From NCBI GenBank assembly GCA_964187785.1, contig OZ076409.1:61568001-61632000 (forward strand): DNA of 64,000 bases. Direction: 5' to 3'. Made by a program: the position numbers and the translations under genes. The notes below the pieces were generated by a model. That model ran no database searches and was not told the origin of the DNA. It saw nothing but the letters and a program-made list of their open reading frames with translations. This DNA is from Amphiscolops sp. MND2022 (Eukaryota). This document shows positions 30,901 to 62,088 of the stretch, piece after piece (the first letter of the stretch is position 1; the number at the start of each line of letters is the position of its first letter).

Positions 30901-32385
30901 CGTCGTGATTGCTCTCACTTCGTAGGGAATCAATTGAACTGTGCCTGCGGTTGTGATTCCAATCACGGGAGCTAAAATCTATTCTAGAACGATTTCCGAA
31001 GTCCTTTTTACTATTATCAGCTCCTAGGCTCCTGCTCAGTCTACTGGACTTAAGGTCCACATCTTCCCGCAATTATGGTCTCTGACTTCCCAAAGTATTC
31101 TGAATGCTAGATAGTATTTTCTCATTATTTGCAGAATGTATTGAATCAGTTATCTGGGAGTTTAGGTCTCTCTTTAGCTCATCAATTCTTTTAGAGACCT
31201 CTAAGTTAACCAATCTCACATTTTCTAAGGTGGTTTCACTATTCTCACTATTCTTTTTACTATTTGAATTTTAAAAGTGACCTAAAATCTTCACTTTTCT
31301 GAACTACGTCCTGTCTAGGTCCTTTTGACTCAACGTCCACTTCAACATTTCTGTCTTCAGAATTGCTTTCTAATTCATTTCTCGCATACGATCCTAACAT
31401 TACGTCCAAATTATCTACGTCAGACATCTGGTTTGCTTGTCTGGAACGTCTTTTCTTTGCTTTTTCTTTCCTTCTTGAACACATTGAAAATGAAGGCTCG
31501 AGTAAAATTATATTATTGAGCGTGATATTTTATCAACAATGGGAAGTAATCAAAAGCAACAAGGCAAATTGAATTGTCATTAAATTGTGACAGTTATAAA
31601 GAGCTTAAACTCAATTTGAGTGATGGTTGTATCGATTGTGTCCCCTGACCTTGAGTCCTTACAGTTTATATGTGTAGCAGCATGACACTCAAAATATTGC
31701 TGATCATACTACTAAAAATAGCATCAAAGTTGGGCAAATGGACCCTGGGGACTGTCGCCATTATTGCATCACAATGACTTCATACTAAAAATAGCATCGT
31801 TACTAAAATCAGGGATCGTAATGGGACGGGGGGCGTAAAGGCGGCACGCCTATCATGTCCTAAAATCTAAAAGTAGCACATTACATGACGTTTGTTTACA
31901 TACGAGTAGATAACTGTAAATATTAGCTTCATTTTATGGACCAGCGGTCCAAGCGTCTAAGCACAGCTAATTGTATAAATGCATGAACGATTGAATGATT
32001 GAACAAATGCTGAACGCCGGTTGGTTAATCAGGAAAAGGACCACACGTCGAATTGACTAGTACAGGCGTCAATTCGAACGCGTTTCATTTCACTGTATCA
32101 GTTGATCATATTAATCTAATTGCATAATTCATCTAATCTGCACTTCAACAATACTGGTTTACATGGTATCTATACTATAAATCAAACAATATAGAAAAGA
32201 ATAAAAATAGTGAAGTTTTTGAACAACATAAGGCAATAATATTAGCAGGGGGAAACGTTTGTAGTTTATAGGACCACGGGTCCAGTTGACTTAGAGCGGT
32301 AAAACTCCTGGGGGAAGAGGCAGGCTACCCCGATCGTCTGAAGGTACTTGATATCGGTTTTCATCGCAGGCGGCAGTCTGCGACA
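30901..32385 (-). mobile_element. Solo LTR (~1485 bp) of a family related to the 41734-54528 element
   Basis: Minus strand starts TGTCGCAGACTGCCGCCTGCGA (cf. TGTCGCAGGCTGCCGCCTGTGA) and ends ...AATCACGACG (cf. CATGACA). TSD ACTTC/ACTTG. Contains a gag N-terminus homolog MCSRRKEKAKKRRSRQANQMSDVDNLDVMLG. Confidence 0.85.
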
Positions 32386-41733: not shown

Positions 41734-43465
41734 TGTCGCAGGCTGCCGCCTGTGACGGTACATTAATAACGACGTCAGCGGAAAATCAGGAAATCGTCCC
41801 AGGTACCCTACCCACGTTTTAAACTTTCCCTTACTGAAACTTATATTTACTAGTTGATCACATTCATTTTACTTATTCAAGTGCATTTTCACATAATTGT
41901 TCATGATATTAGTCTGTTAAAATTACGATTTGGAGCTATCCAAATCAAGTTGTGATTGAAATTGTAAAAGGTAGTTGTTGAAATTAATCAAAGCGGTAAC
42001 GTACAATAAGCAAGTTAATCGCGAGAAGGAAACGTGTTCAAGTAAGAAAACGTCCCTTCTCGGCGATGTAACTTTCAGCACGGTTATTAGCCAATCAGAG
42101 CTCTCCTTTTTACTAATTATGAGTGCTTTATTTATGGTGGCCGGATATGGCCAATTGACTAAGCGGCGCTAATTTGAATCAGTCCCACAGTCAAATGGAC
42201 AGCTCCGGCCAATTCGAGCTTAATGATGCTTTTGTTACATAATTGGATCAGTACTTACGCGGAGCTATTAGAATCATGTTTTTAGACTAAATGAATACGG
42301 TTGTGACGTTTTGATGTTTGTATACCTTTGATTTGGATAAAGGGACGATTATGGCCTTTTACCATGTTCTTCATATGTGCAATACATGTTATGAATTTGG
42401 GCCTATTCTGGCTTTGATATGCGAGTGTATTTTCGTGAATACCAATGCAATATTAGGATTCCATACATAGTAATACATTCCGTTTTTAGCTTAACATGCA
42501 GTAAACTTGTGCCGGCACGTGCCTTCATTTTACGTTACTATAAAATATGCAAATTGTGGTATTTGTTTACATCACACATTAAGCGGTCTTAACCGATAAA
42601 TTGTTTGAAGTTGCTACTTAAGATGATGACTCTGAATTCCATTCCTTAAATGTCCCCCGGAAATATGTAGTTGTCGGGGATTTTCTTATGATGATTGTAA
42701 AATCCTATGATTTGTCTTGATCAAACTATGTAAAAAATGTGTGTGTCATCCCTTTAGGGGTATAAATACCCGTACCCCTGCAGGAAGACTCATACTTTGT
42801 ATTTCTCTTCATTTGATAAAGACGTTCATAATACAAACGGTTTCACTGTTAACATTTCGGAATTGATAATTCAAGTATTCAATCCGGTTCGGTCTTAATG
42901 CCTACTACAAGAAAGCAAAAGAAAACAAGGAAATCTAGAGGATTAGAGATTCTCTCTGACATTGAAAACCTTGACATAATGTTAGGTGAAAATCACTTCA
43001 ATGACATGGGGAGAGACGAAAGTCTCGATGGAACTTCCATTAGAAGACAGGAAAGTGTTACAAGCAATAACTTAGAAAATGAGGAAATGAATCTCCATTC
43101 TGATCATAGAAATCCCGAAACTGGGACTAGTGCCGGTTACGACCGAATCACAGCAAGTATAGATTCTCAAGCTGAGATCAATAAGTTATCGTGTGAACTA
43201 AACTCTAGAATATCTAGAGAGATGGATGAGATGATGAACAGTGTTAGTTCTCAAATCCAGAGAGCCATAAGTGATGCCATCAATAACCAAGTTTTGCCAC
43301 AAATTCAAAACGTTATTATGGCCGGTTCAGGACAGGAGACTAGAAGGGGATGGGAGAGATCTGACGAGAGACCGGAAAGTTATTCCGAAGTTCAACACAA
43401 CGCGAAAACTAGAACTACTCTCAATAATGAACATGGTGATAAAACACAACGTAATGTTCATGACA
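41734..43465 (+). repeat. 5' LTR (1732 bp)
   Basis: Direct repeat of 52797-54528. About 9 substitutions spotted by eye, no indels. Confidence 0.97.
42761..42768 (+). promoter_or_regulatory. Putative LTR TATA box
   Basis: TATAAATA within GGGGTATAAATACCC, about 135 nt upstream of the gag ATG. Copy at 53824. Confidence 0.6.
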
Positions 43466-44592
43466 TGGTGACAGGAGACAACGAATCTCCAAATCCAGTT
43501 CCTGAGTTTCTCACAGGACGCATCTCATCCCGAAATCATCTCGACAGGTCCTTCGAGGACGTCAACCTCAACACGACGATCCCAGCACAACAGAGAATCG
43601 CTACGGCTATTGACTCCGACCCTATCACTCGACTGGCAGACGTCTTGACTACAATGCAGAATAGACCGACAGCCCAACAACTTACCATACGCCCAGTCAA
43701 CTCAAATACCATGACATTCGATGGCAAAAGTGAGAAATTCGATTTGTTCGAAGACCTATTTCACACTATGATCAAGATGCAGCCAGAAATGACTGAGCAA
43801 ATGAAGATCAATCACTTCCACTCTTTATTGAGGAAGAACGCTCTTCAAACGTTCAGAAATATCAGCTCAAGCAACCGACAAACTCTAGAGGACGTATTAG
43901 TCATCTTTAGACGGAAATACGTCAAGCCCGAGTCACAGGCGACTGCCAAACATAAATGGCACCGTCTGGTCTTCGATCCCAACACGATGAAACTGCCTGA
44001 CTTTCTCGAAGAATTAAACCAAGGAGCCGAGAAGGCGTTTGGTGATCATGCGCAGAAAATGATTGACAGCTTGCTTTACGCAAAACTGCCACCAAAACTG
44101 AAGCGGTCCGTCAACATGGCCAGATTAGAAAATGGCTCATACGATGAGATAGTTGCTCATTTGGAGAGAGAATTAGAGCTTAACGCCCTCGAGGAGTCAG
44201 ATGACCTACCGATGGCCACAATGACCTCCTCGACTACGAAACCTAAAACCCCTCTGTCCACAGGGCAACTGTCCGATATCACTTGCAATTATTGCAAGGA
44301 AAAGGGCCACATGGTCAAGGACTGCGAAAAACTGAAAAAGAAAAAAGAAAAGGATGCCCAACAAGGCAAGTCGACGCAGAAGAAAACATATCCGGAGTGT
44401 GGCATTTGTGGGAAAAATAACCACCCGGAGGAGAGATGTTGGCAAGGCGCTGGTGCACATCTTAAACCCAAACGCACTAGACCTGAGGACTCAACTGACA
44501 ACAAGCCCAATCCCAAGGCTCAGAAACCTCAGACCAAACCGACATCATCGGGCTCCCAATCCTCATATTCTGATGACGAGTCAAAAAACTAA
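42898..44592 (+). CDS. gag: Gag (564 aa), initiating inside the 5' LTR
   Basis: Intact ORF. Capsid-like region from TFDGKSEKF, two knuckles CNYCKEKGHMVKDC and CGICGKNNHPEERC. Confidence 0.92.
   Translation: MPTTRKQKKTRKSRGLEILSDIENLDIMLGENHFNDMGRDESLDGTSIRRQESVTSNNLENEEMNLHSDHRNPETGTSAGYDRITASIDSQAEINKLSCELNSRISREMDEMMNSVSSQIQRAISDAINNQVLPQIQNVIMAGSGQETRRGWERSDERPESYSEVQHNAKTRTTLNNEHGDKTQRNVHDMVTGDNESPNPVPEFLTGRISSRNHLDRSFEDVNLNTTIPAQQRIATAIDSDPITRLADVLTTMQNRPTAQQLTIRPVNSNTMTFDGKSEKFDLFEDLFHTMIKMQPEMTEQMKINHFHSLLRKNALQTFRNISSSNRQTLEDVLVIFRRKYVKPESQATAKHKWHRLVFDPNTMKLPDFLEELNQGAEKAFGDHAQKMIDSLLYAKLPPKLKRSVNMARLENGSYDEIVAHLERELELNALEESDDLPMATMTSSTTKPKTPLSTGQLSDITCNYCKEKGHMVKDCEKLKKKKEKDAQQGKSTQKKTYPECGICGKNNHPEERCWQGAGAHLKPKRTRPEDSTDNKPNPKAQKPQTKPTSSGSQSSYSDDESKN
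43466..43477 (+). promoter_or_regulatory. Primer binding site, embedded in the gag reading frame
   Basis: TGGTGACAGGAG directly after the LTR-terminal CA. Close to the tRNA-Leu-type PBS TGGTGTCAGGAG; tRNA identity not verified. Confidence 0.8.
44583..44589 (+). promoter_or_regulatory. Putative -1 ribosomal frameshift heptamer A_AAA_AAC
   Basis: Immediately before the gag stop. The downstream protease frame is -1 relative to gag. Confidence 0.7.
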
Positions 44593-47500
44593 CTTCGCCA
44601 CGACTCCAATATAACGAATTAATATCTGTCCGACAATACATCAGATCGGACCCTCCAACACAAACTTTCCACCAATACAATTAACAATTGATGGGCTATC
44701 CCTCTGTTGTCTGGCAGCAGCAGATGGAAAAAGCCACCATCATCACCTACAATAACACCCATTTGTTCCAGAAACCAATTCCTGTTTGGGACCCTGATCA
44801 CACCACCACCTTCACTACCCGATTCAGGCCCATTCCACTAATCGATGATTACAACCCGACATACATCGACCCAGACTATGGCAGAGATCCCTACTGGGAG
44901 ACCGAGCTTTACAACCAAGATTTACTGCAATTCCAATATGTCCTAGACGATATTGAACATTATAATAGAACAGCCCACGAGAACCCTCCAATTACCCATA
45001 ACAAGAAAACAAGAGCGCTAATTGAAAACTGGCAAATGAATGATGGCACAAACCATCCAGTGTTCCCAAACCCATTGGGGACCGAGACCCATGACAGCAA
45101 TGTTGAACCCATACCACAATCATTGCTAGACGAGAAACAGTTCCAGAATGTCTTAATCACTAGAGACGGTGAACCAGACTGTTTACCCCTGTCGACTAAC
45201 ATCAATCTCAAATGCAAGAAACGCATGTTGTACTTCCTAATGGACTTTGGGGAATTGACCATAGATGGACTTATTGACACTGGAGCGCTGTCCAGTGCAA
45301 TTCCCGAAATGGACCTCCGGAAAATTCGACTTTTATCTCCACAATCTGTTATCCGGGAAGGTCCGCCTCCGAATTTCCAAATAATGGTCGCTAATGGGCA
45401 ATTGGAAACTCCTAAGAGTACAATAGAGCTCAAATTCGAAGTTGGTGACATTGAGTTCCATGAAATCTTCATAGTGATGGAACATCTGACAGGTCCGATC
45501 ATTGGACTAATGTTCCTTCAAAGAAACCATACAGTGCTGGACATGAGACAAGGGATACTGAATTTCCCGTTCTTTTCGATGCAGCTCAAAACAGCTGATC
45601 ACAAGTATTCAAATGTATTAGAGCCAATTCTCAACCCTATTGAGATAACCATTCCACCAAATGATAAAGTCCTAATTAGGACCAATTCCCTACTCTACCC
45701 TGAGAATGCTGTCACTGGAATTTTGCAACCGAGCGACCTTCTACATGAAGAAGGCGACATCACATTTTGCCCAGCTTTGGTCACTCTGAATGACGGCAAT
45801 ATACTGATACCAGTGAACAACTTCACAGACCACCCTTATAAACTCAAAAAGGGACTTCATATTGCCAATTTCTCTGTCATGACGCCAGAACAGATGAAGT
45901 ACGTCAAACCGATAGATCCGGCATCAACCTGGCACCTTCTACAGAATGACCAGGAGCAGGCAGCCCACTATGTCAGCAGTCTCATCAAGACCAATAGAAA
46001 TCCGCAAAACTCTGAAAATTATTGGTTCCCAACTCCAGAAAACCCCTGGAAATCCGGAGGAACACACACCTATACAAAAACGAATCCTTCGAGAATTACA
46101 GGCCTTACAAGACCTAGAGACACTTGACCCCACCAAAGATGAAGACTCACGTGCATAATTCTTAGAAAACTTCGATTGGAAAGATTCCACCCTTACTCCT
46201 GAAGAGAAGGAGAAAATAGAGGAATTGTTAGTGGAATTCCATGACATCTTTGCACGACACCGATTTGATATAGGCATGAACGAGGACTTCAAGGTGAAAC
46301 TGACGCCTAAAGACGATTCCCCAGCCTATAGCCAAAGCCTTCCAGCTCCTATCAATCTGAAGGAGGACATCCTAGTCGAATTAGCCATGTTACACAAATA
46401 TGGCATCATCACCACCCTACCGTTCTCGAAATATGCGAGCCCAATATTCGCACAAAAGAAACCGAACGGAAAACTCCGACTCTTGGTTGACTTGAGAAAA
46501 ATCAACAACCTCATCTCGGATGATTATATCAACAACAATCATCCCGTCAGTACGCTAGTTGATGCCGCCCAACACTTGGCAGGCAAAAAACTGTTCTGTA
46601 AATTAGACTGTTCGCAGGCATACCACTGCCTACCAATGGCTGACCAACGTTCAATCGAAATGTTGGCTTTCAATTTTGCCAGTCGCACATTCGCCTACAG
46701 ACGTTTGGCACAAATCCTTAGTCGGTCACTATCCGCATTCTCGAGTTTCATGAGGGAATACCTCGACAAAGTCATCAAAGCGGATCAGTGTGCCCAGTAT
46801 GTGGACGATATCGGCATCGCAGCCAATGATGTTGACCACCTCATGACGAACCTGAGAGCTACATTCAAATGCATTCAGGAAGCAGGCCTTAAGTTAACAA
46901 TGCACAAATGTCATTTCGGTGCAAAAGAAATCGATTTTCTCGGACGGACTATTACCCCACAAGGCGTCAAACCCCAGAAACAGAATGTGCAAAACTTTCT
47001 GGAAAAGACCAAATTCCCGAAGTCGAAAAAGGCTTTACAGCGCTATTTGGGATTCCTAAACTACTACAGGAATTATGTCCCAAGACTTTCAGAACGCCTT
47101 GCTCCATTCTACAAGATGCTGAAGAGTGACGAAAAGGTCCTAGTATCGAAGGAATTAGTCCAGCAATTTGAAGAAATCAATAGGGCGCTAGACAAATGTT
47201 GCGACTTGGCCCTACAACAACCCATTCCGAACAAACAAATAGCACTAATGACTGATGCAAGTTTTGGTGCAGCCGGATACGCGGTCCTAATCGAAGACGA
47301 CCCAAGCCAGAAATTTACGTCACACAGAAAATCGTATGCACCAGTCGCATATGGATCAAAAACTTTCACCCCAGCGCAGATAAAGATGTCAATTTATGCC
47401 AAAGAATTCCTTGCAATTTATTTTGCATTCAAAGAATTCGGACATATATTTTGGGGTGCGCCGAAACCGGTCATCATCCTTACAGACAATAAAGCTGTCA

Positions 47501-49790
47501 CGAGATTTTTCCAAACAAAAATAATACCCCCAGCCCTGTGGAACGCGTGTGATTATGTCATTCAGTTCAACTTTGTCATAGCACACATCCCAGGAGCACA
47601 AAATACAGCTGCCGACTATTTGTCCCGATTGGAAGCAGATCCAACGGACAAATTGGTGATGAAAATTCGTGAAGATTTACAAACACTACCCATCGAAATC
47701 AATGTCCAATCCGCAGGGGTATCGCAAGAAGAACAAATCTTCTACACCAATGACGACGATGAGACAGAAGAACAGTTGTGGGCAAGAAAAGAAGCAATCA
47801 GGAAAAATCCAGCAACTGATGAACCCACTGTTACTATACAAACTCTGTCAACAAATCTAGTCAAGCAACACCCCGATATACAAGTCCGATTGAGGAAAAC
47901 GAACCAGATCATTATCGAGCAATCCAAAGATGCGGTACTACAACAATTGAAAGCAAAATTGCTTCATGAAGAGTATTCAGAAAATCTACTGCACCAGGAT
48001 GCCCGATATAGACATTACGCAAACAATCTGGAACGAATTGTACTAAAGGACGAAATCCTGACAAGGCAATATTTCGATGAAACAGGGAATGTTAAATACC
48101 ATCAAATTTTACTCCCGCAACATTTACTCCAGGAATTGCTCCAATCTCTTCACGAGACAGCGCATAAACATCCTGGGATTTCAAAAATGCTGCAGGAAAT
48201 TCGACAGAGGTATTACTACCCTAGCATGGCTAAACACGTCAAAAAGTGGGTAGAAGGGTGCGAACAATGTGCCAGAGACAAAAGAGTCCCTAACGCAACG
48301 ATCACACCTGAGCTGCTTAACTTGCCCGAATGGGACCTCGGACCTGAAGACGCCATGCAAATAGACCTATTGCCGAATCTTCCCCCAAGTGGTGGGTATG
48401 AAAACGTCTTAACAGCAATTGATGTATTCTCCAGATATTTGTTCGCCTATCCCCTTACGGACGCATCAGCGATCAATGTAGCAAAAGCGATCATTGACAT
48501 CATGACTAAACACTCATATCTACCAACGACTCTTATCACTGATAAAGGTACTGCATTTACTTCTACAATTATTGCGGAGGTTACGCAGATTTTGGGCATC
48601 ACACTCAAAAGTGCAACAACAAAACACCCGCAGACAATTGGGAAATTGGAGCGAACTCATGCCTCATTGAAAACAAATATCAAAATGGCATGTGGAGAAT
48701 ATCGCCGACAATGGCACAAATACTTGCCATTAGCAGTACTAAATCATAATACTACCTACCACGCCAGCATCGGTTGCGAGCCAACGAGGGTATTTCATGG
48801 AAGAATTCCATTTAATATTTTAGATCACAAGCTTGGAAATAATCCAAACGAGCAAATTAACCCCACAACCGAATTTGCTGAAGAAATCCAAAACCGGACA
48901 AAAATCCTGATTGACAAAACGAAGCAAAACATTATGCAATCGTATATCAAGTACAAAGAATATTACGACCGCAAAGCAAAAGCCGCTCCACTAAAGGAGA
49001 ACGAATACTGTTTTGTCTTACAGCCGAAAGCGGACAATCAAGGATCGAAAATTCCATTCCGCGATTATCGTTGGGTTGGACCATTTGTAGTCCAAAAGGT
49101 TTTGCCAAATGAAAACTATATAGTACGACGAATCAATACGAACAAAACTCAAATTTTGCATCGCATTCGTCTTAGAAGGTTTGTCCCCTATCAACCGCTT
49201 GAGGACAATTCCCGAGAACAACAGTTGCAGACAGATGAAGAAATTGTCATTCCGCAAGATGATTTATACGTCATAACGTGGGAAACCGACTTTGGCGAGC
49301 AACTAGTTACACGAGGCAACGAGACTATTCCGACCAGCATGCCGAACGGCCGAACGTGCCAGAAGCGAATACAAATGACGTAACCGAGAATGAACCGGAT
49401 TACATAATCACGAGTGACGAAACAAGTTACGCTGACCACGCGGCGCGGAACCGGATTGAAAGATTAAATCATGACGTCACAAAAAGGAATGAAGCTAGTG
49501 AAGCGGCTACCAATGACAAATCTGATTGGACGAATCCGACCGTTTCCCCAAAAAACCAAGAAAAATCATTGCCGAATACGGCAGATAGACCGGAAAACGA
49601 TGAAAATTTTACAGAAAGAAACTTGACGAATGAAAACGATACACAAAAATCTCCAAACAGGGGGGATGATATTATCGTGCCCGAAATATCCGAAAACGAT
49701 GCTAGAAATGAGAGTCTGAGCCCTAGAGGAGGGAAATATAACCTCAGACCTAACCCTAACCCAAACTACTCAGAAGACTTCAGATACTAG
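44589..49790 (+). pseudogene. pol: Pol (protease, dUTPase-like segment, RT, RNase H, integrase, acidic tail) with few lesions
   Basis: LIDTGA, KLDCSQAY, YVDD, MTDAS, ILTDN, HHCC, QIDLL / ITDKG / LERTH, WVGPF, C-terminal KYNLRP. Stops at 44682 and 46156, frameshifts near 46045 and 49350. Confidence 0.93.
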
Positions 49791-50025
49791 GGAAGACTGA
49801 ATTCAGTTCAGGAGATGAGTCCCGATTTGGATTTTCTTTTCTTTTATCCTTTAGCCCCTTGAGAGTCAGTATCTTTTGAATAAATAATGGGACGTATGAA
49901 AGATGCCTTACAGAGGTAACAATACGGGATCAAGAAATCAAAAGAAGGAAAGTATATAAATAAAGGCAACAAAACAAAAAATCAACAAAGTTTACAGTTC
50001 AAAGTACATACATACATATGTACAG

Positions 50026-51226
50026 TTAGTCTTTAGATGAACCAGGCTCACTGACTCCAGCAGTGGATGACGAAGAGGCGCGAGAAGCGCGACGTTCCAT
50101 TTTCCTTCGCTTAGTGCTAGTAGGGGCTTTCACAGCAGACATATCAGCTACGGAACATTGATCTTCTGGCGCACCACGGACCAGAGATTTTTGAGGGGTG
50201 GAAAGAGCTGCCCGGTAGGAAGCCAACAATGACTTATAAATCTTCGAACGCCCGAAATTGTCCACGTACGTCCAAGGATCATAATCGGGAGCAAATGCAG
50301 AACGCCCGAAAGAAGAAGAGAAGTCAATGAACTTGGCCAGATTCCCATCATCACTACAGAAAGCAACTGCGTCACGCACGGTAGCTACGTAACTTTGACT
50401 GGGAAGAATGACGTCTGTCAATCTGCTATGACGTCCAGAAGTGGAAACTGTCCCGAAAGTGACATCAGGATACGTGGGGCTAACAGACGTAGCGCACAAG
50501 CAACACAACTTGAACAAATAGAATAGGCAGCTACGATTACGGAGGAATTCCAGCTCGGACAGGAACTCAATTCAGGTAGCTGAGACTCAGAGGCCTCGAT
50601 GACCTTCAAGGCAGACTCTAAAGCTGACAAGTCAGCTTCTTGGACTTCCTCGTCATCAGACTGGATGGGCGTACTCGACCTTCGGTTCTCAGCAGTCGTC
50701 AATACTAATTCAGGAGGGTCATTGACTTGTTCTTGGCTCTGCAGCAGGGCAGACGCAGGATGTTTCTCTTCGTGTGTAACGATGCGTTGTGTCTGTTGCA
50801 TCCGTTGGAGCATAGATTCAGCATATGATGTTACATCTGGGTCACTGTCAGCACTGTGAGTAGAGGTGATATCATCAGTACGGCTTCGAGACAACTCTTG
50901 GGACACACTCGGATTTTGGATTTGTGGTCCAGCTTCGGTCGGTGGATTAGCCGCTGAAGTAGTGGTAGCAGGTCTGACTGGTACATCGGCAACTTCAGTT
51001 GTTTGATTCTCTAAATAAAAAGAGATAAAGTTTGGCGGTATGCTTCCTCGAAAAGAATCCATTCTACCGCATTAGAAACCTTCCGGAAGTACTTGAGAAT
51101 TTGAACAAAATGTGCTGTCACGCGCTTATTAGTGGAAACAGGAAGCTTATTGTGAACGTATTTAGCCCTGATCAAGCTAAGCTAGTTCAATATACGAAAA
51201 CCAGACCAACCTGTGCTTGAAGACAT
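50026..51226 (-). pseudogene. Antisense accessory gene of the element (putatively spliced, ~335 aa, one frameshift)
   Basis: Exon 1 ATGTCTTCAAGCACAG (51226-51211), GT-AG intron 51210-51011, then the 214-aa frame, switching near 50572 into the 163-aa frame ending at 50026. Confidence 0.6.
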
Positions 51227-52099
51227 GTTTTTCCCGGGTTGTTGCTCCAAAAAGAGTTGTTTTGAACTGACGATTGTGAGATGTGGATGGTGGCCTTTCA
51301 CGGTCGAGGATGAAGGGGAATAAGGATACTCCGAAGAGAATGCGTTGGACGTAGACAAATAGATGGCAATTGGGAGATTGCAGATAAAGAAAACAAATGT
51401 AAGGTGATCGGAATTAAATAGAATTGGAATTGGATGAAGCAATTGAAAAGTTGGAGTTCGTGGCTGAAGAAATTACCAGACTAATATTATTTGATTATTT
51501 ACATATTTAAAATGTACACGGAGTCTGCCAGCGAAGTGTACAAAGGACTTTGTTATTTACAGCTTATTTAGTTAGAGGCCAGTTATGGCCGTTTGCCCTG
51601 TTTTGTTTTACCGTTTGGTCCAGTTACCCTTAGTTAGAATTTTCGCCATCTTGAATTACTTAGATTTATTATTTTCGCCATTTTTATTATTTAATTTTAC
51701 AATTTATCGAAGCTTAACGCTGATTGGATGAAGCCATTACGAGAAGTTTTGGTGACGCGTGCCGCTAATTGTTTACAAGCGACCCGACCTGTTAATTACC
51801 CACTTGAGACGGATGTAGTTGATATTCATAAGTCGAGCGCCATTCACACCTCTTCTAGTGATGACACTGATGAGGGGTAAACATCAGGCTATCAAAGGGA
51901 ACCGACCAATTAAAGAATTCCATTCAGAAAAGTTTACGACGAATCGGGACGATTAACCTAAGATTCTCCCGCCGAACTGGGAAGTTCGGAAAAAGGCCCG
52001 ATTCGACTAAATTCTTGAAACTGATAAATTCATTCTACTACAAACGTCTCTTCAATACAGTCGCTACGAGCAGCTTCAAAAATAGCAAAAAAGATAATC

Positions 52100-52885
52100 A
52101 TGAGCAAATACAACTTAGCTAGAAGATTGTTCGATCTGGAGGAATACGACTCAGATGAGTCTGAAAAATCAGTAATATACATTTTCAGCAGCGAGGGAGA
52201 GTCTTCGGACTAGGAAACCGACTGCTCCACGGACACGGAGCAACTTTTTGCAAGAATCGAAAGGAAAGTCACCTCCAGCCCCATGTTAATCGGGGGCCGC
52301 ATAATGACTGTGGAGGAACCCTCAGAAGATGAACCAGAAGCTGGCCCCAGCTCTTCCCAGACGCAAACAGATGTAACTCCAAAATTTGACCACAGGTACT
52401 TTGACCAGGAGATGTGTTATGCTCCCCCAAAGAAGTTGGGAAAGTCAAGGATAGAAATTTGCAAGACTCTATTACCAGTGCCTGAGTCACCCATGTCACC
52501 GCCTGACCATGAGAGAGGACCAAGTTTGGACACCCCCCTGATGCAGCCTACAATGGGTGGTTCTCACGCGTCGTTTCATGTACAGAACACAAGGCCGTAC
52601 GAAGACGTGAGCAATAAACTGTACTCTGGTTGTATGGTGTGTGGCAGATCCTCAGAAGCAATAAAGAAAGAGAAAGTAGAATGGTATGTTGCAAGGTCCA
52701 AGCCGCGAGGAGAGCCCGAGTACATCATGAAAATCAGAAGGGAGGCATATGAGAACGGTCTCAACGCCGGGGCATTCCTCTTCATAACACCCGCAGTGTC
52801 GCAGGCTGCCGCCTGTGATGGTACATTAATAACGACGTCAGCGGAAAATCAGGAAATCGTCCCAGGTACCCTACCCACGTTTTAA
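52100..52885 (+). pseudogene. Accessory ORF-X (~261 aa, one internal TAG at 52211), ending 89 nt inside the 3' LTR
   Basis: ATG at 52100 is in frame with the 200-aa ORF. Acidic N-terminus, CMVC motif, C-terminal VSQAAACDG...PGTLPTF. The C-terminal peptide is conserved in the solo LTR. Confidence 0.7.
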
Positions 52886-54528
52886 ACTTTCCCTTACTGA
52901 AACTTATATTTACTAGTTGATCACATTCATTTTACTTATTCAAGTTCATTTTCACATAATTGTTCATGATATTAGTCTGTTAAAATTACGATTTGGAGCT
53001 ATCCAAATCAAGTTGTGATTGAAATTGTAAAAGGTAGTTGTTGAAATTAATCAAAGCGGTAACGTACAATAAGCAAGTTAATCGCGAGAAGGAAACGTGT
53101 TCAAGTAAGAAAACGTCCCTTCTCGGCGATGTAACTTTCAGCACGGTTATTAGCCAATCAGAGCTCTCCTTTTTACTAATTATGAGTGCTTTATTTATGG
53201 TGGCCGGATATGGCCAATTGACTAAGCGGCGCTAATTTGAATCAGTCCCACAGTCAAATGGACGGCTCCGGCCAATTCGAGCTTAATGATGCTTTTGTTA
53301 CATAATTGGATCAGTACTTACGCGGAGCTATTAGAATCATGTTTTTAGACTAAATGAATACGGTTGTGACGTTTTGATGTTTGTATACCTTTGATTTGGA
53401 TAAAGGGACGATTATGGCCTTTTACCATGTTCTTCATATGTGCAATACATGTTATGAATTTGGGCCTATTCTGGCTTTGATATGCGAGTGTATTTTCGTG
53501 AATATCAATGCAATATTAGGATTCCATACATAGTAATACATTCCGATTTTAGCTTAACATGCAGTAAACTTGTGCCGGCACGTGCCTTCATTTTACGTTA
53601 CTATAAAATATGCAAATTGTGGTATTTGTTTACATCACACATTAAGCGGTCTTAACCGATAAATTGTTTGAAGTTGCTACTTAAGATGATGACTCTGAAT
53701 TCCATTCCTTAAATGTCCCCCGGAAATATGTAGTTGTCGGGGATTTTCTTATGATGATTGTAAAATCCTATGATTTGTCTTGATCAAACTATGTAAAAAA
53801 TGTGTGTGTCATCCCTTTAGGGGTATAAATACCCGTACCCCTGCAGGAAGACTCATACTTTGTATTTCTCTTCATTTGATAAAGACGTTCATAATACAAA
53901 CGGTTTCACTGTTAACATTTCGGAATTGATAATTCAAGTATTCAATCCGGTTCGGTCTTAATGCCTACTACAAGAAAGCAAAAGAAAACAAGGAAATCTA
54001 GAGGATTAGAGATTCTCTCTGACATTGGAAACCTTGACATAATGTTAGGTGAAAATCACTTCAATGACATGGGAAGAGACGAAAGTCTCGATGGAACTTC
54101 CATTAGAAGACAGGAAAGTGTTACAAGCAATAACTTAGAAAATGAGGAAATGAATCTCCATTCTGATCATAGAAATCCCGAAACTGGGACTAGTGCCGGT
54201 TACGACCGAATCACAGCAAGTATAGATTCTCAAGCTGAGATCAATAAGTTATCGTGTGAACTAAACTCTAGAATATCTAGAGAGATGGATGAGATGATGA
54301 ACAGTGTTAGTTCTCTAATCCAGAGAGCCATAAGTGATGCCATCAATAACCAAGTTTTGCCACAAATTCAAAACGTTATTATGGCCGGTTCAGGACAGGA
54401 GACTAGAAGGGGATGAGAGAGATCTGACGAGAGACCGGAAAGTTATTCCGAAGTTCAACACAACGCGAAAACTAGAACTACTCTCAATAATGAACATGGT
54501 GATAAAACACAACGTAATGTTCATGACA
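52797..54528 (+). repeat. 3' LTR (1732 bp), carrying a second copy of the gag 5' end (53961-54528, stop at 54414)
   Basis: Direct repeat of 41734-43465. Confidence 0.97.
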
Positions 54529-54824
54529 GTTACATACTTTGTATTAGTTCTTTTATTGCCATCTCCGTAGTGTATTGGCTACGCTTGAGCCTTAAAGATG
54601 TGTTTTGAGTAATATCAGAGCATAAAATATCCGGTGCTCAAAAAATTTAAAACTCGAAATTGAAACATTTACACAGTCAACTGTCATTTTCATCATTGTT
54701 TTGACGAACCATCCAAGTACCATCAAAAGGCTGTCTATGGGAAGTTTTCTCAATAAAAAAAGTTGTTCCATCGCTGGGCCATGGGATGAAATGCAGTCTA
54801 TTGGATCTTTAAGAGATTACTCAC

Positions 54825-56402: not shown

Positions 56403-56636
56403 TGTTATATACGGTTCAATCCGATTCTTACGACCTCTACCGAGATTCGGTTCACTTACATGAAAACTGTCTAGTGTCTACATACCAGCTGGGGTTGTTT
56501 ACAAACAAACTCAATCAAACGTTAAATTACATTAGATACATTTATACGAAGTGAAAAGCTGAGATATAGATTTGAACTAGAGATCTTTATTTTACAATAT
56601 TCTTTTCTCTTAAACTTAGATTACCAGAATACAACA
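56403..56636 (+). repeat. 5' LTR
   Basis: Direct repeat of 62089-62322. Confidence 0.95.
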
Positions 56637-56689
56637 TGGCGCAGTCAGCCAATTTTTAAAACAATTGAACAAAAACTTCTTAATACAGA

Positions 56690-59600
56690 ATGGCGGAGAA
56701 AAACATAGTCCCGAACCTCGAAGCGAAAGCCAGAGACGGGAATCCGGTATTCACACCGAGACAATGGCTAGAGAGGTTCCGGCAGTTCTGTAAACGGGAA
56801 CACAAAATAGACATCGCACCGCTACTGAAAGGAGAAGATATAACAGACACCGGGTGGACCGGAAAAGAACAATTGATTCGAGATTTTCTGTGGGGAGTGG
56901 GACCGGAAGCACTCTACCAAATAACTAGGGCCGAATATAAAACAGAACCCGACAGTATAAAAGTGAAATACTTAATCCGATTGTTCACCGAATTTTACAT
57001 GCCGAAAAGAAACACGTACCATAACCGCGGAGACTTCTTCTGGGCAAAACAGACAGAAGAGGAAACACCCGAGGAATTTTGGAGACGGTTGATCGAAATC
57101 GAAAAAGAATGTAACTTCAATACCATCTCGGCAGAAGAATTGTTGATATCAAAATACATGACCGCAATCACCGATAAAAAAAATTACGGGATGAAATAAT
57201 GAAAGAGAAAACATTGGAACTGAAGAAAGTAATCAAATTGATCAAACAAAACACATACGAGAAGAAAAATAAAAAGAACACAATACCGGAAGCTTTGATA
57301 TCAACAAAAGAAAAACAAATAATAAAGGAAGAACCGATACAAAGAATGGAACGATTCGGTGTCAGACCGAAAAGTAAAAACTTCGGAAACCGAACATGCA
57401 GATTCTGCGCCGCACCAAACTGGACACCGATGCACAAATGCCCCGCACTAGATGTTAACTGTAACAAATGCGGTAAGAAAGGACATTATGCGAAAGCATG
57501 CAGACAGAAGACAAACAGCAACCGAACCGTGAAAAGACTAACCGAAGACGAACCGAACGAATCAGACAGATCATCAAGTGAATCCGAAGAGAGCATTCAC
57601 CACATTAAAGAGATAAAGAAAATCGACGAAACAAATAAACACTTCACCACAACGCTCATAATCAATGGAGTAACAAAAGAATTTATAACAGACACCGGAT
57701 CACCAATATCACTAATGCCACCGGATGAAAGAATTAAAAAATCAACCGAAATACAGAAAATAACAAACCGATACCAAGATGTGAATAAAAACGAAGTAAT
57801 GTTTCGGAGAAAAATTCCGGTAAATGTCGAATACGAAAATAACAAACAAAAAATGGAGATTTTTATAACCGAAAGAACAGATATGACACCATTACTCGGA
57901 ATGGATTGGATGAAGAAATTCAAACTAACGATCAGCAAAATACAATTGGCCGACAACAACCAATCAGAACGCGAGAAAATATTCAACAAATTTCCGGACC
58001 TATTTTAAAACAACGAAACGATAAAGGACACCGAAATAAATATTCAATTAAAACCAGGACACTATCCGGTAAAACAAAAAGCAAGACCGATACCATTACA
58101 CCTTCAAGAAGACGTCGGACGTGAACTAGGAAAACAAATAAAATCCGGACACTTAGAAAAGATAAAAGACGTAGACGAAGATTGTTTTGTATCTCCGGTA
58201 GTCAAAACCGTGAAAAGTGACAAATCAGTGAAGATAGCACTAGACTCAAGAAAAATGAACGATAGTTGCATTAAAATGAGACCTCACATGCCGAATATGG
58301 AGGAACTACTAAACCAAATTTCGGTAGAAATTTCACGCGACCGAACGGTACAACTATTTATATCAAAAATTGAATTAGACTATGCGTACGGACAAATGAA
58401 ACTATCCAAAGAAACAAGCCGACAATGCGTATTTGCCTTAACCGGAGGAAAATTTAGCGGATATTACCGATTAAAAAAGGGTTTTACGGACTTGCCGACA
58501 TACCCACGATATTCCTAGAAAAGATCGACCGAACACTCGCATATTGCACATCGGCGTGGCTGGACGATATAATTGTAGTAACACGGGGAAATAAACAAGA
58601 CCACGAGAAGAAATTATTTGACGTATTGAATAAACTGGAAAAAGCCGGCTACCGAGCAAGCAAAAAGAAATCAGAATTCTTCATGAACCGAATAAAATGG
58701 CTGGGACACGAAATCTACGAAAACGGAATTAAACCGAACGAAGAAAAAATAGAAGCCAAACAAAAATTAAAACCACCGGAGAACACAAAAGAACTGAAAT
58801 TTCTCGGGGCGATACAATACATGGCAAAATTTTTACCGAAACTTTCGGAACAAACCGACCGATTACGAAAATTACTGAAAAAGAATGAGCCATGGATATG
58901 GGGAGATGAACAACAAAAAGATTTCAAAAAAATAAAACAAATGTTAACCGAAGGCCCATGCTTGGCACACTACGCAAAAACAAAGATAATTCAGTAACAA
59001 CGGATGCCAGCACCACCGGACTGCGGATAACACTATGGCAGAAACAAGATGACGGATATACGAAACCGATAGCATTCGGGAGCAGATACTTGAACGATAC
59101 CGAAAAGGAATATTCTATCGGTGAATTAGAATTACTAGCAGTAGTGTGGGGACTCGAAAAATTCCGATTTTTTTATACGGTAAGAAGGTGTATCTTTATA
59201 CCGATCATCAAGCACTAGAGCCATTAATCAAGAGAAACCGGAGCAACAGACAGTATAGCGCGCAATTAACAAGATGGTTAGACCGTCTAACTCACTTTGA
59301 TATATCAATACAGCATATCGCAGGCAGTAATTTGAAATTCACCGACTACCTCAGTAGAAATCCGGTAGGGGGAGCCAAACCCGAAGAAATCTACGACGAA
59401 GAATACGTCATCAACATACTTACCGAACAAGCAAAATTGAATATAAAATACGGACCAATATTCGCTGCCCAATCAGAATGTAAGAAAGTGAAAACCGAAA
59501 TAAAGAATGATACGGCCGAAGAACAAATTGAGAAATGCGGTAGCCAATCACACACGAATAGAACATTCGAGAACAAATACGGCGTGAACAAAAATAAACG

Positions 59601-61917
59601 AAACGAAGAAGCTACATCCGGGCAGTCCGAAATTAGCGCGCTAGAGCCAAGTTATTCAAAGAAAGAGAGTCAAAATGCAAATCGAATTACAAAAGTTCAA
59701 AATTCAATTACGGAAATTACCGAAATGGATCGCGAAAATTTTTACCACTGGGGCGCCACACGCGAAATTATGGAGATTATTCGCAGACGGAATAATAGCA
59801 CAGAGACACGCCGACTAGTAGAGCAACGAAATGGATTATCCCGACCAGGAACATTACGACGTCGGTATGACCACTACACTCAAAGAACGGTATTCGCTCC
59901 AACGAGACCCAACAAAAGAAGCCGAGAGGAAATTGCCGAGATAGACGCAGAGATCATGAGGAGAGCCAATCGATTGGGCGGCGGATACCGACCAATAGCC
60001 GAGGAAGAAGAAGAACCGGAAGAAATACGGGAAGAAGGCGAACTAGAAATCGAAAATGCCGAGACGGAAGAAGACAGCGTCATAATGCGGGGCGACAATC
60101 TACCAATAGTAGATCTTAGCAAATACAATACAGAAGGAAAACGGGCGCATTATATACAAATAAACCACATCGTGGGAAAATTAACAAGCAACAAAAAGAT
60201 TACCGAAGAACATATCAAAAAAGCAGAATTTGAGTTCATGATGGACTTAAAAACACTCATCGCAAAAACCGATGCAATCGATCCGGAACTAACCCGCGTC
60301 AGAACCAGCATGCGGAGAGAAGATCGAGAGACAATTCCGGATGGCTACCGAAATGCATTCGACAAACTATCAATCAGATGGGGATTGATCTTCGTCGATG
60401 ACCAAATCGTGATACCCATCGACTTGAGACGAAGACTCCTGGACATCCTTCATTTCGGTCACTCCGGTATAACAAAAATGATGTCAGAAGCACGCATATT
60501 CTGGTGGCCCAGAATGAAACAGGATATCGAGAACAAAGTAAAAGATTGCACAGCCTGCTTTGCATCAGGTAAAAACCTTAAATATCAATCACCGAAAAAA
60601 CACTACGGAAAATTAGAAAAACTAACCGAACCCGGCCAAGAATTACAAATTGATTTTACCGGAAAATTACATAACAAAAATATACACGGAGAAGTACAGA
60701 TACTAATAGCGGTAGATAGATTCAGTAAATGGCCGACCGTAAAAATATGTAAAACGGCGGAGACCAAAGAAGTCACAAATTTTCTATCGAGTAATTTTAA
60801 CTTATACGGAATACCGGAAAAGATCAAATCCGATAAAGGAGGAGCGTTTGTTTCGAAAAATTACCGAGAATTTTGCAAGAACCGAAATATTGAAATTGAA
60901 TATTGCACCCCCCGAGTACATACGGGAAACGGAGTAGTAGAAAGAGCAATACAATCATTGAAAAACTTAATAATAGCAAGTTTGGAAGACGGTATAAGTT
61001 TAACCGAAAGTGTAAACAGAGCACTACATGTAATGCAATTTCACAATACATACCGGACTAAAGTTAACGCCATTCGAACTACACCACGGTAGAAAACCGA
61101 GAACCGAATTAACGAATATCGTTAAGGACGGAAAATCATACCTATCTAATTGGTCAGAACTGACTGTTTCAGCGCCGAACAGACCAAAGATTCCCATATA
61201 CGTTGGCCGTGATGCGGACGAGGATATTACAAACCACATATTTATGGCGCGAACCAAAACAGAGGAGAAACACCTCGCCGAAAGATCGAAATCACCGAAG
61301 AAGAAAAATTCGTTTAGATACCCTTTTTACTTTGTTGAAAAGAATCATAACAAAAAATCATTGGAAGGAAAATCTCAAAAAAAATACAAACCGCTATAAG
61401 CGGAACCGAAAGTACTATAAAAACAGACTCCGGGAAAATAACTAACCGAAAATTCATTTCGGAACCACTGTTTCAGACCGAGAGGAAAAGCAGAAAAGAA
61501 CCGGTAACAAACGCAACCGGTGAAATCAACCCCAAAAATTGACACTGCCTACGCGGACTGGACGGGAAATACGGCCGTTGGGATGAAATCCTTCGGGACA
61601 TCCTGAACGGTAAATTGAAAATCGTCCAAAATAAAAAGCGGGCAGAAAGCGAAACCGACGATGACGACGAGGATGAAGACGATGAAGAAACGCCGGAAGA
61701 AACCGGAACACCGATAGTATATGACACATCCAAAAGAGACTGGAGATACGTGCCAATACGGACTAACCCAGAGGAAGACACGCTACAACTACACACCGAC
61801 AGCGAAATGCCGGGTGAGAATTCAGAATTACAAAAAGACGCTCTAACCGAAATAGTAAAAAACCGAATAGATACGGTAGCATACCCTATACGGAAAACTT
61901 CTGGGGATGAAAATTAA
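56690..61917 (+). pseudogene. Gag-Pol polyprotein of the 56403-62322 element
   Basis: Twin knuckle CRFC..H.CPA...CNKCGKKGHYAKAC, TDTGSP, ELDYAYGQ, WLDD, TTDAS, ELELLAVVWG, LHFGHSG...CTAC, QIDFTG / KSDKG / VVER. Several stops and frameshifts. Confidence 0.92.
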
Positions 61918-62088
61918 ATGTCTAAAACACATTGTATATATTACAGGTCCAATGTGGAACAGACACAAAGAGACGCCAAAGCCGGAGACAATCCAGAAGC
62001 CAGCAGACTTCCTACCCGAGGAAGAATCAACACCAGGCCCCTCAAACCGAATGTAGAAAACTACACGAGAAAAGAATAGAGGGGGAAA

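What the first reader, a model, noticed from the sequence alone, without database searches (positions are those of the whole stretch)
52100..52885. ORF-X: unknown ~261-aa accessory protein in the env position, not env-like
It has an acidic, Ser/Pro-rich N-half, then YSGCMVCGRS and a likely helical segment. There is no signal peptide or clear transmembrane anchor. Its C-terminus lies in the LTR. The diverged solo LTR encodes SQTAACD...PGVLPL-stop (across one frameshift) against SQAAACD...PGTLPTF-stop here, which argues for a real protein. A trans-activator or anti-silencing role is speculation.
Basis: partly seen in the sequence, partly recalled or inferred. Interest (0 to 1): 0.72.

Follow-up and report, generated by a model that had tools for sequence, protein, structure and literature searches.

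The report
Retrotransposon accessory gene with non-AUG start
A large family of retrovirus-like jumping genes carries an extra gene, kept by selection, that runs into its terminal repeat and matches no named protein family; it likely starts at an unusual non-AUG codon and likely makes a nuclear regulator of the element, but the copy in this window is broken by a stop codon.

Summary
Real gene, broken copy. ORF-X lies between pol and the 3' LTR of a young Ty3/gypsy element, with 29 codons inside the LTR. Homologues down to about 25% identity hold the same position. dN/dS is 0.125 outside the LTR, so the gene is no LTR by-product. No transmembrane segment and no Pfam, PDB or fold match.

New here: in 21 of 21 representative copies, coding conservation begins 6-13 codons upstream of the first ATG, at ATT/ATA/ATC in an A(-3)/G(+4) context. 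An outside relative has ACG there. This points to conserved non-AUG initiation. The protein has a SUMO-interacting-like motif, an acidic Ser/Pro region and a CxxCG plus helical-hairpin core, and it faces an antisense hAT-like gene across a conserved promoter-like spacer. Best guess is a low-dose nuclear trans-activator or anti-silencer (about 0.5, untested). The scan noted a probably identical 'ORF Z' elsewhere in this genome.

The parts
41734..43465 (+). 5' LTR, 1,732 bp, TG...CA; preceded by target-site copy GTTAC (41729-41733); holds the first 189 codons of gag
   Evidence: 99.5% identical to the 3' LTR
43466..43477 (+). primer-binding-site-like TGGTGACAGGAG, same in all families examined
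   Evidence: 7,993 genome matches against 65 for the control pattern; the priming tRNA was not identified
42898..44592 (+). gag, starting inside the LTR
   Evidence: DUF1759, weak zf-CCHC
44685..49790 (+). pol (protease, RT, RNase H, integrase), split over three frames in this copy; one frame of 1,577-1,690 codons in five other copies
   Evidence: best solved relative of a sister pol is Ty3 Gag-Pol
50026..51062 (-). remnant of the antisense hAT-like gene: start of its first long frame joined to the end of its last frame by a deletion of about 3.15 kb at about 50565-50585
51063..52081 (.). about 1-kb spacer between the head-to-head antisense gene and ORF-X; positionally conserved motifs CTGCCAG (51525), TGATTGG (51721), CCACTTGA (51800), ATCAAAG (51891), TCATTC (52030); inferred internal promoter
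52082..52099 (+). inferred non-AUG start (ATA at 52082-52084 in AAA-ATA-G context) and 6-codon in-frame extension before the first ATG
52100..52885 (+). ORF-X from first ATG to stop (261 codons); interrupted in this copy by a stop at 52211-52213
52172..52201 (+). SIM-like motif position (hydrophobic core followed by Ser and acidic residues, residues 25-34); this copy deviates from the family at one position
52631..52765 (+). conserved folded core: CxxCG followed by two helices (residues 178-222)
52797..52820 (+). LTR-terminal 24 nt, able to form a 9-bp hairpin, nearly invariant across families; encodes SQ-AACD
   Evidence: 4,867 genome matches against 0 for the control
52797..54528 (+). 3' LTR, followed by target-site copy GTTAC (54529-54533)
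30901..32385 (-). solo LTR of a distant ORF-X family, carrying the ORF-X C-terminal 30 codons and a decayed gag head; flanks CAAGT and GAAGT

Best explanation
ORF-X is a conserved, non-envelope accessory gene of a large Ty3/gypsy clade, broken by a stop in this copy, that is likely transcribed from an internal promoter, likely translated from a non-AUG codon, and likely acts in the nucleus as a trans-activator or anti-silencing factor for its element. Shown: position, family-wide conservation, purifying selection, absence of a membrane anchor, and the point where coding conservation starts. Inferred, step 1 (about 0.8): a short subgenomic RNA starts 50-60 nt upstream, from the 1-kb spacer shared head-to-head with the antisense hAT-like gene, because ORF-X lies about 12 kb into the genomic RNA, behind an antisense gene. 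Inferred, step 2 (about 0.85): scanning ribosomes start inefficiently at ATT/ATA/ATC/ACG in a strong context, giving a form with a short basic-hydrophobic N-terminal extension; ribosomes that leak past it would start at the AUG 6-13 codons later. Inferred, step 3 (about 0.5 overall): the disordered acidic N-half would dock on SUMO through its SIM-like motif and be tuned by proline-directed phosphorylation (the conserved S/T-P-x-S-P motif), while the CxxCG plus helical-hairpin core would bind metal and a protein or nucleic-acid partner, so that LTR transcription is raised or SUMO-dependent silencing is blunted.
For: Selection: dN/dS 0.125 (0.10-0.15) over 1,442 codon pairs outside the LTR in 6 independent subfamily pairs, 0.06 in the core, 0.14 in residues 1-100. 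Family: 192 database proteins from a single query, full-length relatives at 31-37% identity, 140 and 143 genome matches for two distant families, same architecture in all 10 element loci examined, gag head in the LTR and three antisense frames before ORF-X. Start codon: 21 of 21 representatives have an in-frame I-A-K/R-K motif 6, 10 or 13 codons before the first ATG; the codon is ATT 11, ATA 9, ATC 1; the codon before it is AAA in 20 and ACA in 1, never AAG, while the next two Lys positions use AAG 6 and 7 times; the next codon is GCN with all four third bases. In-frame stops lie 3-10 codons upstream in 10 of 21, and there is no AG between stop and motif in 4 of 21. Differences between 8 pairs sit mainly at third positions inside the extension (10/6/20 of 69 per position) but not in the 10 codons upstream (29/43/31 of 80). 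No ATG within 84 nt upstream in 17 of 17. Outside loci: L138 has AAA ATT GCA in frame, L139 has AAA ACG GCG in frame. Prospective check: 13 of 20 genome hits to the start pattern lead in frame into ORF-X homologues. The same kind of evidence identified luteovirid ORF3a (PMC4422679, passages). Promoter-like spacer: CCACTTGA 13 of 18, ATCAAAG 16 of 18, CTGCCAG 16 of 18, TGATTGG 10 of 18, at near-fixed distances, against 0.2, 2.6, 0.4 and 1.7 expected. SIM-like motif: 16 of 28 proteins match a hydrophobic core plus Ser/acidic pattern against 0.1 expected; consensus from PMC8616421 and the PML motif from PMC10705990 (passages). CxxCG in 28 of 28, S/T-P-x-S-P in 27 of 28.
Against: No functional data at all. 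The SIM consensus is degenerate (PMC8616421 says so), my pattern was tuned on this family, and 12 of 28 proteins fail the strict form, including the whole P0263-type clade. A K/R-K/R-x-K/R nuclear-signal pattern occurs in only 3 of 28 proteins read from the first ATG. Only two close Cys are certain; the C-terminal Cys lies in the nucleotide-frozen hairpin, so its conservation says nothing about metal binding, and the models give no confident packing with the other conserved Cys and His (pTM 0.27 and 0.39). Spacer motifs were chosen from the same sequences and relatives share them by descent; an initiator-like hexamer at -51 to -58 is present in only 8 of 17 and no TATA box in any. The upstream control was ungapped, which inflates its differences. 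8 of 90 copies lack the strict start motif, and 7 of 20 pattern hits did not lead into a recognisable ORF-X. Representatives fall into a handful of clades and are not independent.
Confidence: 0.5

Rival explanations
1. ORF-X is a Rev/CERV-like factor that binds the element's unspliced RNA and licenses its nuclear export or packaging, switched by phosphorylation.
For: CERV of C. elegans Cer1 is a nuclear LTR-retrotransposon protein with a Cys-rich loop and a required S/T-P phosphosite (PMC10309623, passages); ORF-X has CxxCG and a conserved S/T-P-x-S-P motif.
Against: CERV is 517 aa and spliced from gag exons with three folded domains. ORF-X is about 270 aa, largely disordered, strongly acidic (net charge -6 to -17 in residues 1-60) and has no Arg-rich RNA-binding stretch. 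No sequence comparison with CERV was run.
Confidence: 0.2
2. ORF-X is the partner of the antisense hAT-like protein: the two are co-expressed from the shared spacer and form one chromatin-binding complex, for example to steer integration or protect new copies.
For: Head-to-head arrangement about 1 kb apart in all families examined; the antisense frames carry a BED-like CxxC...H...H finger and resemble hAT dimerisation-domain clusters by features (score 0.91, a lead only).
Against: Gene neighbourhood alone is weak evidence; some copies duplicate ORF-X without the antisense gene (L050, five tandem units). This is compatible with the best explanation rather than exclusive.
Confidence: 0.15
3. The non-AUG extension is a targeting signal that sends the long form to an organelle or membrane, where it alters host physiology; the short form stays soluble.
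For: The first 15 residues after the start are basic (+3 to +5) and hydrophobic in 11 of 11 representatives.
Against: The hydrophobic moment varies from 0.06 to 0.54, acidic residues appear as early as position 8, and a strongly acidic tract follows. No targeting predictor was run.
Confidence: 0.08
4. ORF-X is an envelope-like or FAST-like protein for cell-to-cell spread.
For: Sense frame between pol and the 3' LTR.
Against: No transmembrane segment or signal-like leader in 21 of 21; the one weakly apolar stretch contains Pro, and Arg in the P0263-type clade; 256-285 aa against 60-210 aa with a transmembrane segment for sORF2 (bioRxiv 2025.03.14.642691, passages).
Confidence: 0.03
5. The frame is a by-product of LTR-end (att) conservation and of recent copying, with no protein function.
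For: The SQ-AA codons are nucleotide-invariant (one codon each in 17 of 17); the youngest pairs show dN/dS 0.48; the window copy is broken.
Against: dN/dS 0.125 outside the LTR and 0.094 in the LTR part after the hairpin; conserved residues elsewhere use 2-6 synonymous codons; frames stay open at about 25-35% protein identity.
Confidence: 0.01

Closest known systems
Foamy virus Tas (Bel1) expressed from the internal promoter (PMC8670036, passages; PMC13220597, search listing)
   Same: Small regulatory gene between the main genes and the 3' LTR, expressed from an internal promoter (inferred here); proposed role as activator of the LTR, opposed by host chromatin silencing.
   Different: No sequence or fold link was found or tested directly; the host element is a Ty3/gypsy without env; DNA binding and activation by ORF-X are untested; non-AUG start and head-to-head antisense partner have no counterpart in the passages read.
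CERV of C. elegans Cer1 (PMC10309623, passages)
   Same: Lineage-restricted accessory protein of an animal Ty3/gypsy element with a Cys-rich segment and an S/T-P site.
   Different: CERV is 517 aa, spliced, shares exons with gag and has three folded domains; ORF-X is about 270 aa, stand-alone, 3'-terminal, overlaps U3 and is mostly disordered.
Additional 3' ORFs of plant LTR retrotransposons: sense env-like aORF-3S and antisense aORF-3R such as Grande gene23 and Retand TRP28 (PMC7264820, parts 1-2 of 3; PMC11963269, abstract)
   Same: Extra conserved ORFs between pol and the 3' LTR, function unknown; gene23 is nuclear and has its own promoter.
   Different: The sense aORFs described there are env-like with transmembrane segments; ORF-X has none, has no Pfam match, runs into the LTR and coexists with a separate antisense gene in an animal element.
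sORF1 and sORF2 of Drosophila MDG1-group elements (bioRxiv 10.1101/2025.03.14.642691, passages and section 7)
   Same: Accessory ORFs under purifying selection in env-less gypsy elements; sORF1 is subnuclear and of unknown function.
   Different: Both lie upstream of gag and are 70-110 aa; sORF2 is a membrane protein.
Luteovirid ORF3a (PMC4422679, passages)
   Same: Mode of initiation only: start codon varying among AUU, ACG, AUA (and CUG) in an A(-3)/G(+4) context, with in-frame stops just upstream, on a subgenomic RNA.
   Different: Unrelated protein and virus; there the start was confirmed by experiment and there is no in-frame AUG alternative, here it is inferred and extends an AUG frame.

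Membership tests
Ty3/gypsy LTR retrotransposon (host element) | Two LTRs with TG...CA ends and a target-site duplication | tested here: met
   1,732-bp LTRs, 99.5% identical, GTTAC on both sides
Ty3/gypsy LTR retrotransposon (host element) | gag, then pol in the order protease, RT, RNase H, integrase | tested here: met
   Pfam scan; best PDB relative of a sister pol is Ty3 Gag-Pol, E 2e-45
Ty3/gypsy LTR retrotransposon (host element) | Polypurine tract next to the 3' LTR | tested here: inconclusive
   8 of 10 purines in the P0201-type clade, 4-5 of 10 in the window's clade, 5-6 of 10 in the P0263-type clade; priming itself not testable
Retroviral or errantiviral env | Sense ORF between pol and the 3' LTR | tested here: met
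Retroviral or errantiviral env | Signal peptide and transmembrane anchor | tested here: not met
   maximum 19-residue hydropathy 0.77-1.35 in 21 of 21 representatives; hydropathy scan only, no dedicated predictor
sORF2 / FAST-like fusogens | 60-210 aa with one transmembrane segment and an N-myristoylation motif | tested here: not met
   256-285 aa, no transmembrane segment, no MGxxxS/T start
CERV / Rev-like export factor | Spliced product sharing gag exons, with H, M and G domains | tested here: not met
   stand-alone frame with stops just upstream and no universal splice acceptor; one small folded core
CERV / Rev-like export factor | Binds and exports unspliced element RNA | not testable with these tools
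   needs CLIP and fractionation
Foamy-virus Tas-like trans-activator | Expressed from an internal promoter | tested here: inconclusive
   conserved spacer motifs; no transcript data available
Foamy-virus Tas-like trans-activator | Binds promoter DNA and activates the LTR | not testable with these tools
   needs reporter and binding assays
Foamy-virus Tas-like trans-activator | Sequence or fold homology to a known trans-activator | tested here: inconclusive
   no significant match in Pfam, PDB or viral structure libraries; absence from these lists does not exclude a family
SIM-bearing proteins (PML/Daxx-type phospho-SIM) | hXhh or hhXh core flanked by acidic or phosphorylatable residues | tested here: met
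   16 of 28 strict matches against 0.1 expected; 12 of 28 fail the strict pattern; consensus from PMC8616421
SIM-bearing proteins (PML/Daxx-type phospho-SIM) | Binds SUMO | not testable with these tools
   needs a binding assay
Non-AUG-initiated genes | Near-cognate codon in A(-3)/G(+4) context at the 5' edge of coding conservation, with upstream in-frame stops | tested here: met
   criteria as in PMC4422679
Non-AUG-initiated genes | Initiation shown by profiling, proteomics or reporter | not testable with these tools
   no expression data were available

The most novel reading that the evidence does not exclude
An animal Ty3/gypsy clade with thousands of copies behaves like a complex retrovirus: from one bidirectional internal promoter it makes a domesticated hAT-like protein and ORF-X, a new family of SUMO-engaging anti-silencing factors whose dose and isoform are set by a non-AUG start kept across lineages at 25-35% identity, and whose tail is co-encoded with the LTR-terminal hairpin and the plus-strand priming region. 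It would be a retrotransposon-encoded counter-defence against SUMO-dependent transposon silencing, of which the paper searches here listed no example.
Probability: 0.3. Interest if true: 0.85.

Novelty: new variant of a known kind. Interest (0 to 1): 0.62.

Why it matters
How LTR retrotransposons escape host silencing well enough to fill genomes is an open question, and few element-encoded regulators are characterised in animals (CERV and the MDG1 sORFs are the ones read here). This clade has at least several thousand LTRs in a 1.07-Gb genome (4,867 matches to its LTR end) and keeps ORF-X under selection as strong as a core gene. The protein is small, soluble and testable on its own. The inferred non-AUG start also matters for annotation: ATG-based gene calls miss the conserved N-terminus, and a search for non-AUG starts in LTR retrotransposons listed only three papers, none on such an accessory gene by title or abstract.

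Tried and rejected
Pfam: no family for ORF-X; best member-wise hits weak and inconsistent. PDB by profile: one hit at E 7.6 and none. Foldseek against PDB and viral models: nothing at E 0.001 or below. VIA-align: best Z 5.4 and 4.5, generic two-helix matches; this shows neither a new fold nor a known one. ESM Atlas on residues 150-261: best score 0.81, within shuffle range. Search among longer proteins (497-2000 aa): none, weak evidence. Viral contigs: 49 pattern hits, 0 confirmed; metagenome contigs: 2 of 197 confirmed. Cluster look-up of 10 proteins: no names, ENA only. Expression: no RNA holder listed, so no reads were laid. Complex prediction of the N-terminal segment with a host SUMO-like first exon (65 aa, lacking its second exon): no verdict. 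A conserved splice acceptor before ORF-X was considered and rejected as a general explanation (no AG in 4 of 21, phases inconsistent). An RxL-F cyclin-docking-like motif (name recalled) is in only 6 of 28 and an LxCxE motif in 0 of 28: dropped. The C-terminal Cys as a metal ligand: set aside because its codon lies in the frozen hairpin. No tRNA gene in the window; the priming tRNA was not identified. Paper searches that listed nothing describing this gene; the library lacks most subscription journals and Repbase reports, and no supplements were read, so a prior description cannot be excluded. Earlier scan notes by sequence and relatives: nothing.

Full report
Observation. The element spans 41734-54528. 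Its LTRs are 1,732 bp, 99.5% identical, end in TG...CA and are flanked by GTTAC on both sides. gag begins at 42898, 189 codons inside the LTR; pol has the Ty3/gypsy order and is split over three frames in this copy. ORF-X runs from ATG 52100 to the stop at 52883-52885, its last 29 codons inside the 3' LTR. Translation shows an in-frame TAG at codon 38, so the 261-aa protein does not exist in this copy. Among sister loci, 24 of 28 scored are open from ATG to stop and none has a stop at codon 38 (29 given, one not scored). These were top-scoring hits, which favours open copies.

The family. A search of the own genome (G000, 1.07 Gb) scored 150 of 8,133 candidates, all at 82% identity or more. 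A protein search found 192 relatives, full-length down to 52%, and an exhaustive search gave full-length relatives at 31-37%. All are unnamed. Two distant ones occur at 100% in G000, with 143 and 140 matches. Ten element loci from these families share one plan: LTR with the gag head, the same primer-binding-like 12-mer (seen in 9 of the 10), gag, pol, three antisense frames, a spacer of about 1 kb, then ORF-X ending in the LTR. The antisense frames carry a BED-like finger (name recalled) and resemble hAT dimerisation-domain clusters by features, a lead at score 0.91. The window copy has lost about 3.15 kb of this antisense gene. Two JGI metagenome contigs encode relatives at 36% and 38% identity (2 of 197 candidates), so the family is not confined to the copies in G000; whether they come from other species was not determined. 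The LTR-end pattern has 4,867 genome matches against 0 for the control.

Selection. From fetched loci I took 90 distinct natural open copies and compared them pairwise (Nei-Gojobori type counts, transition weight 2, Jukes-Cantor correction; no tree model). dN/dS falls from 0.48 in the youngest pairs to 0.11 in the most distant, as expected when recent neutral decay is diluted. Six independent subfamily pairs give 0.14 for residues 1-100, 0.15 for 101-170, 0.06 for 171-232 and 0.13 for the LTR part. Outside the LTR the value is 0.125 (bootstrap 0.10-0.15; 0.098-0.152 for weights 1-4), and after the terminal hairpin 0.094. The first 24 nt of the LTR fold into a 7-9-bp hairpin (z -2.2 to -4.8 in five 30-nt windows; -0.3 in one 81-nt window), and the Cys and Asp third positions vary only between C and T opposite G. 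No compensatory double change was seen, so att-site sequence constraint alone could also explain it. The PG-LP tail does show synonymous variation.

The start codon. Upstream of the first ATG, 21 of 21 representative copies carry an in-frame I-A-K/R-K-hydrophobic motif at 6, 10 or 13 codons from the ATG. The Ile codon is ATT in 11, ATA in 9, ATC in 1. The codon before is AAA in 20 and ACA in 1, never AAG, whereas the two Lys positions after it use AAG 6 and 7 times. The codon after is GCN with all four third bases. This is what a start context (A at -3, G at +4) followed by coding sequence would give. In-frame stops lie 3-10 codons upstream in 10 of 21, and 4 of 21 have no AG between stop and motif, which rules out a general splice acceptor. 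In 8 pairs, differences inside the extension fall 10/6/20 on codon positions 1/2/3 (69 each; 11 synonymous, 16 not), against 29/43/31 of 80 (6 and 50) in the ten codons upstream, an ungapped and so lenient control. No ATG lies within 84 nt upstream in 17 of 17. Of all 90 copies, 82 keep the motif. The two outside loci were not used to find the motif: L138 has AAA ATT GCA AAG AAA in frame and L139 has AAA ACG GCG in frame, a different near-cognate codon at the same place. The pattern has 1,090 genome matches against 18 for the control; of 20 hand-picked matches outside the earlier lists, 13 lead in frame into ORF-X homologues, some from new subfamilies, and 7 do not. Luteovirid ORF3a was found by the same signs: AUU, ACG, AUA or CUG in an A(-3)/G(+4) context with stops just upstream, with near-cognate starts typically at 2-15% of AUG level (PMC4422679, passages; general review PMC5666671, passages). 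In the window the codon is ATA at 52082-52084. Representatives are related, so these counts are not independent trials. I put the non-AUG start at about 0.85.

Expression route. ORF-X lies about 12 kb into the genomic RNA of intact copies, behind an antisense gene, so it needs its own RNA (inference). The spacer keeps motifs at near-fixed distances: CCACTTGA 13 of 18, ATCAAAG 16 of 18, CTGCCAG 16 of 18 and TGATTGG 10 of 18, against 0.2, 2.6, 0.4 and 1.7 expected from shuffles; L138 has two of the four and L139 all four. They resemble NK-homeodomain, TCF and CCAAT-box sites (names recalled, no call). An initiator-like TCATTC/T sits 51-58 nt upstream in 8 of 17; no TATA box was found. The motifs were picked from these same sequences. 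The antisense ATG lies 1,017-1,066 nt from the ORF-X start in six representatives.

The protein. No 19-residue window exceeds hydropathy 1.35 in 21 of 21. AlphaFold gives a disordered N-half and one confident unit, CxxCG plus two helices (residues about 175-224, block pLDDT 75-96; pTM 0.27 and 0.39). Conserved in 27-28 of 28 proteins: I-x-x-C-x-x-L, S/T-P-x-S-P, CxxCG and A-F/Y-x-x-G; a His is nearly invariant too. Near the N-terminus 16 of 28 match a hydrophobic core followed by Ser and acidic residues (0.1 expected), for example IIYLSSDDEE in P0186. This fits the SIM consensus (PMC8616421, passages) and resembles the PML segment VVVISSSEDSD (PMC10705990, one passage). The P0263-type clade fails the strict pattern, and SIM matches are often false. 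The extension is basic and hydrophobic (+3 to +5 in 15 residues).

How it most likely works. Shown: a selected, soluble accessory gene in a fixed 3' position, with coding conservation starting at a near-cognate codon. Inferred: a subgenomic RNA from the spacer; weak non-AUG initiation with a leaky AUG behind it, giving a low dose and two N-termini; a nuclear protein whose acidic, phosphorylatable, SIM-like half engages host chromatin machinery while the small Cys/helix core binds a partner. I commit to a trans-activator or anti-silencing role at about 0.5. Rivals: CERV-like RNA export 0.2, partner of the antisense hAT-like protein 0.15, organelle or membrane targeting 0.08, env-like 0.03, by-product 0.01.

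Known systems. By arrangement it would work like foamy-virus Tas, a regulator made from an internal promoter that activates the LTR against Trim28 repression (PMC8670036, passages); it is not shown to be a homologue. CERV (PMC10309623, passages), MDG1 sORF1/2 (bioRxiv 2025.03.14.642691, passages and section 7) and plant additional ORFs (PMC7264820, parts 1-2 of 3; PMC11963269, abstract) are the nearest retrotransposon cases; ORF-X differs from each in position, size or membrane anchor. It fails the env and FAST-like tests. Six paper searches listed nothing on this gene; subscription papers, Repbase reports and supplements were not seen.

Earlier scan notes. e1-9852443 describes an unnamed accessory gene elsewhere in this genome with a similar reading; it is probably this family, but I could not compare sequences, and it gave me PMC7264820. 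Several notes describe the antisense gene as a catalytically dead hAT transposase, and gag starting in the LTR.

Verdict. Observation partly confirmed; real gene, broken copy; a new variant of the known kind 'accessory gene of a complex LTR retrotransposon', with an unnamed protein family and a well-supported non-AUG start. Function remains inferred. Interest 0.62.

Noticed in passing
window 52783-52796 and equivalent junctions: No clear polypurine tract before the 3' LTR in the window's clade (4-5 of 10 purines; codons P-A-V), whereas the P0201-type clade has AGGGGGAG (codons G-G-V). The junction is inside ORF-X, yet the clade is young and abundant with precise LTR ends, so plus-strand priming here is unexplained.
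   Followed up: partly
window 52797-52820 and 41734-41757: The first 24 nt of the LTR are nearly invariant across families and in both outside loci, and can fold into a hairpin whose variable positions keep G-C or G-U pairs.
   Followed up: partly
window 42898-43465: gag starts 189 codons inside the LTR, so every LTR and solo LTR carries a gag head; same in all families examined. Already noted by the scan (e1-9174308, e1-8580103).
   Followed up: partly
window 50026-51062 (-); L089, L086, L088, L081: Antisense gene of three long frames (about 600-680, 200 and 400 codons) with a BED-like finger and an hAT-like last frame; about 3.15 kb deleted in the window copy with about 20 nt of overlap at the junction. 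Already noted by the scan.
   Followed up: partly
L050 (G000:C1:47789000-47798900), L040, L053/L054: Local tandem duplications that include ORF-X: five units of 1,545 bp in L050, each starting about 30 nt upstream of the start motif and ending about 790 nt into the LTR; 2.7-2.9-kb repeats elsewhere. The L050 copies have lost the strict start motif.
   Followed up: partly
window 49730-49790: pol ends in GGKYNLRPNPNP, which resembles the chromatin-binding motif of foamy-virus Gag (resemblance recalled, no call).
   Followed up: no
window 43466-43477: The primer-binding-like 12-mer occurs 7,993 times in the genome (control 65), more than the ORF-X-type LTR end would account for, so other clades probably share it.
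   Followed up: no
window 51470-51530 (-): A conserved block in the spacer, including CTGCCAG and a possible splice acceptor on the minus strand, may be a first exon or leader of the antisense gene.
   Followed up: no
window 8084-13896, 22990-28780, 56403-62323: Three further elements of about 5.8-5.9 kb with direct repeats of about 220-235 bp (85%, 93% and 98% identical); the last has gag- and protease-like frames.
   Followed up: no
window 3372-3910, 34829-35335, 40677-41077, 63182-63536: Dispersed repeat family with T-rich subrepeats, also seen in flanks of other loci.
   Followed up: no
window 37713-37828: Palindrome of 2 x 58 nt, 95% complementary, no spacer.
   Followed up: no
L149 (G000:C6:22761300-22763300): Host SUMO-like gene in two exons (assignment by a partial Rad60-SLD match and by eye).
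   Followed up: partly
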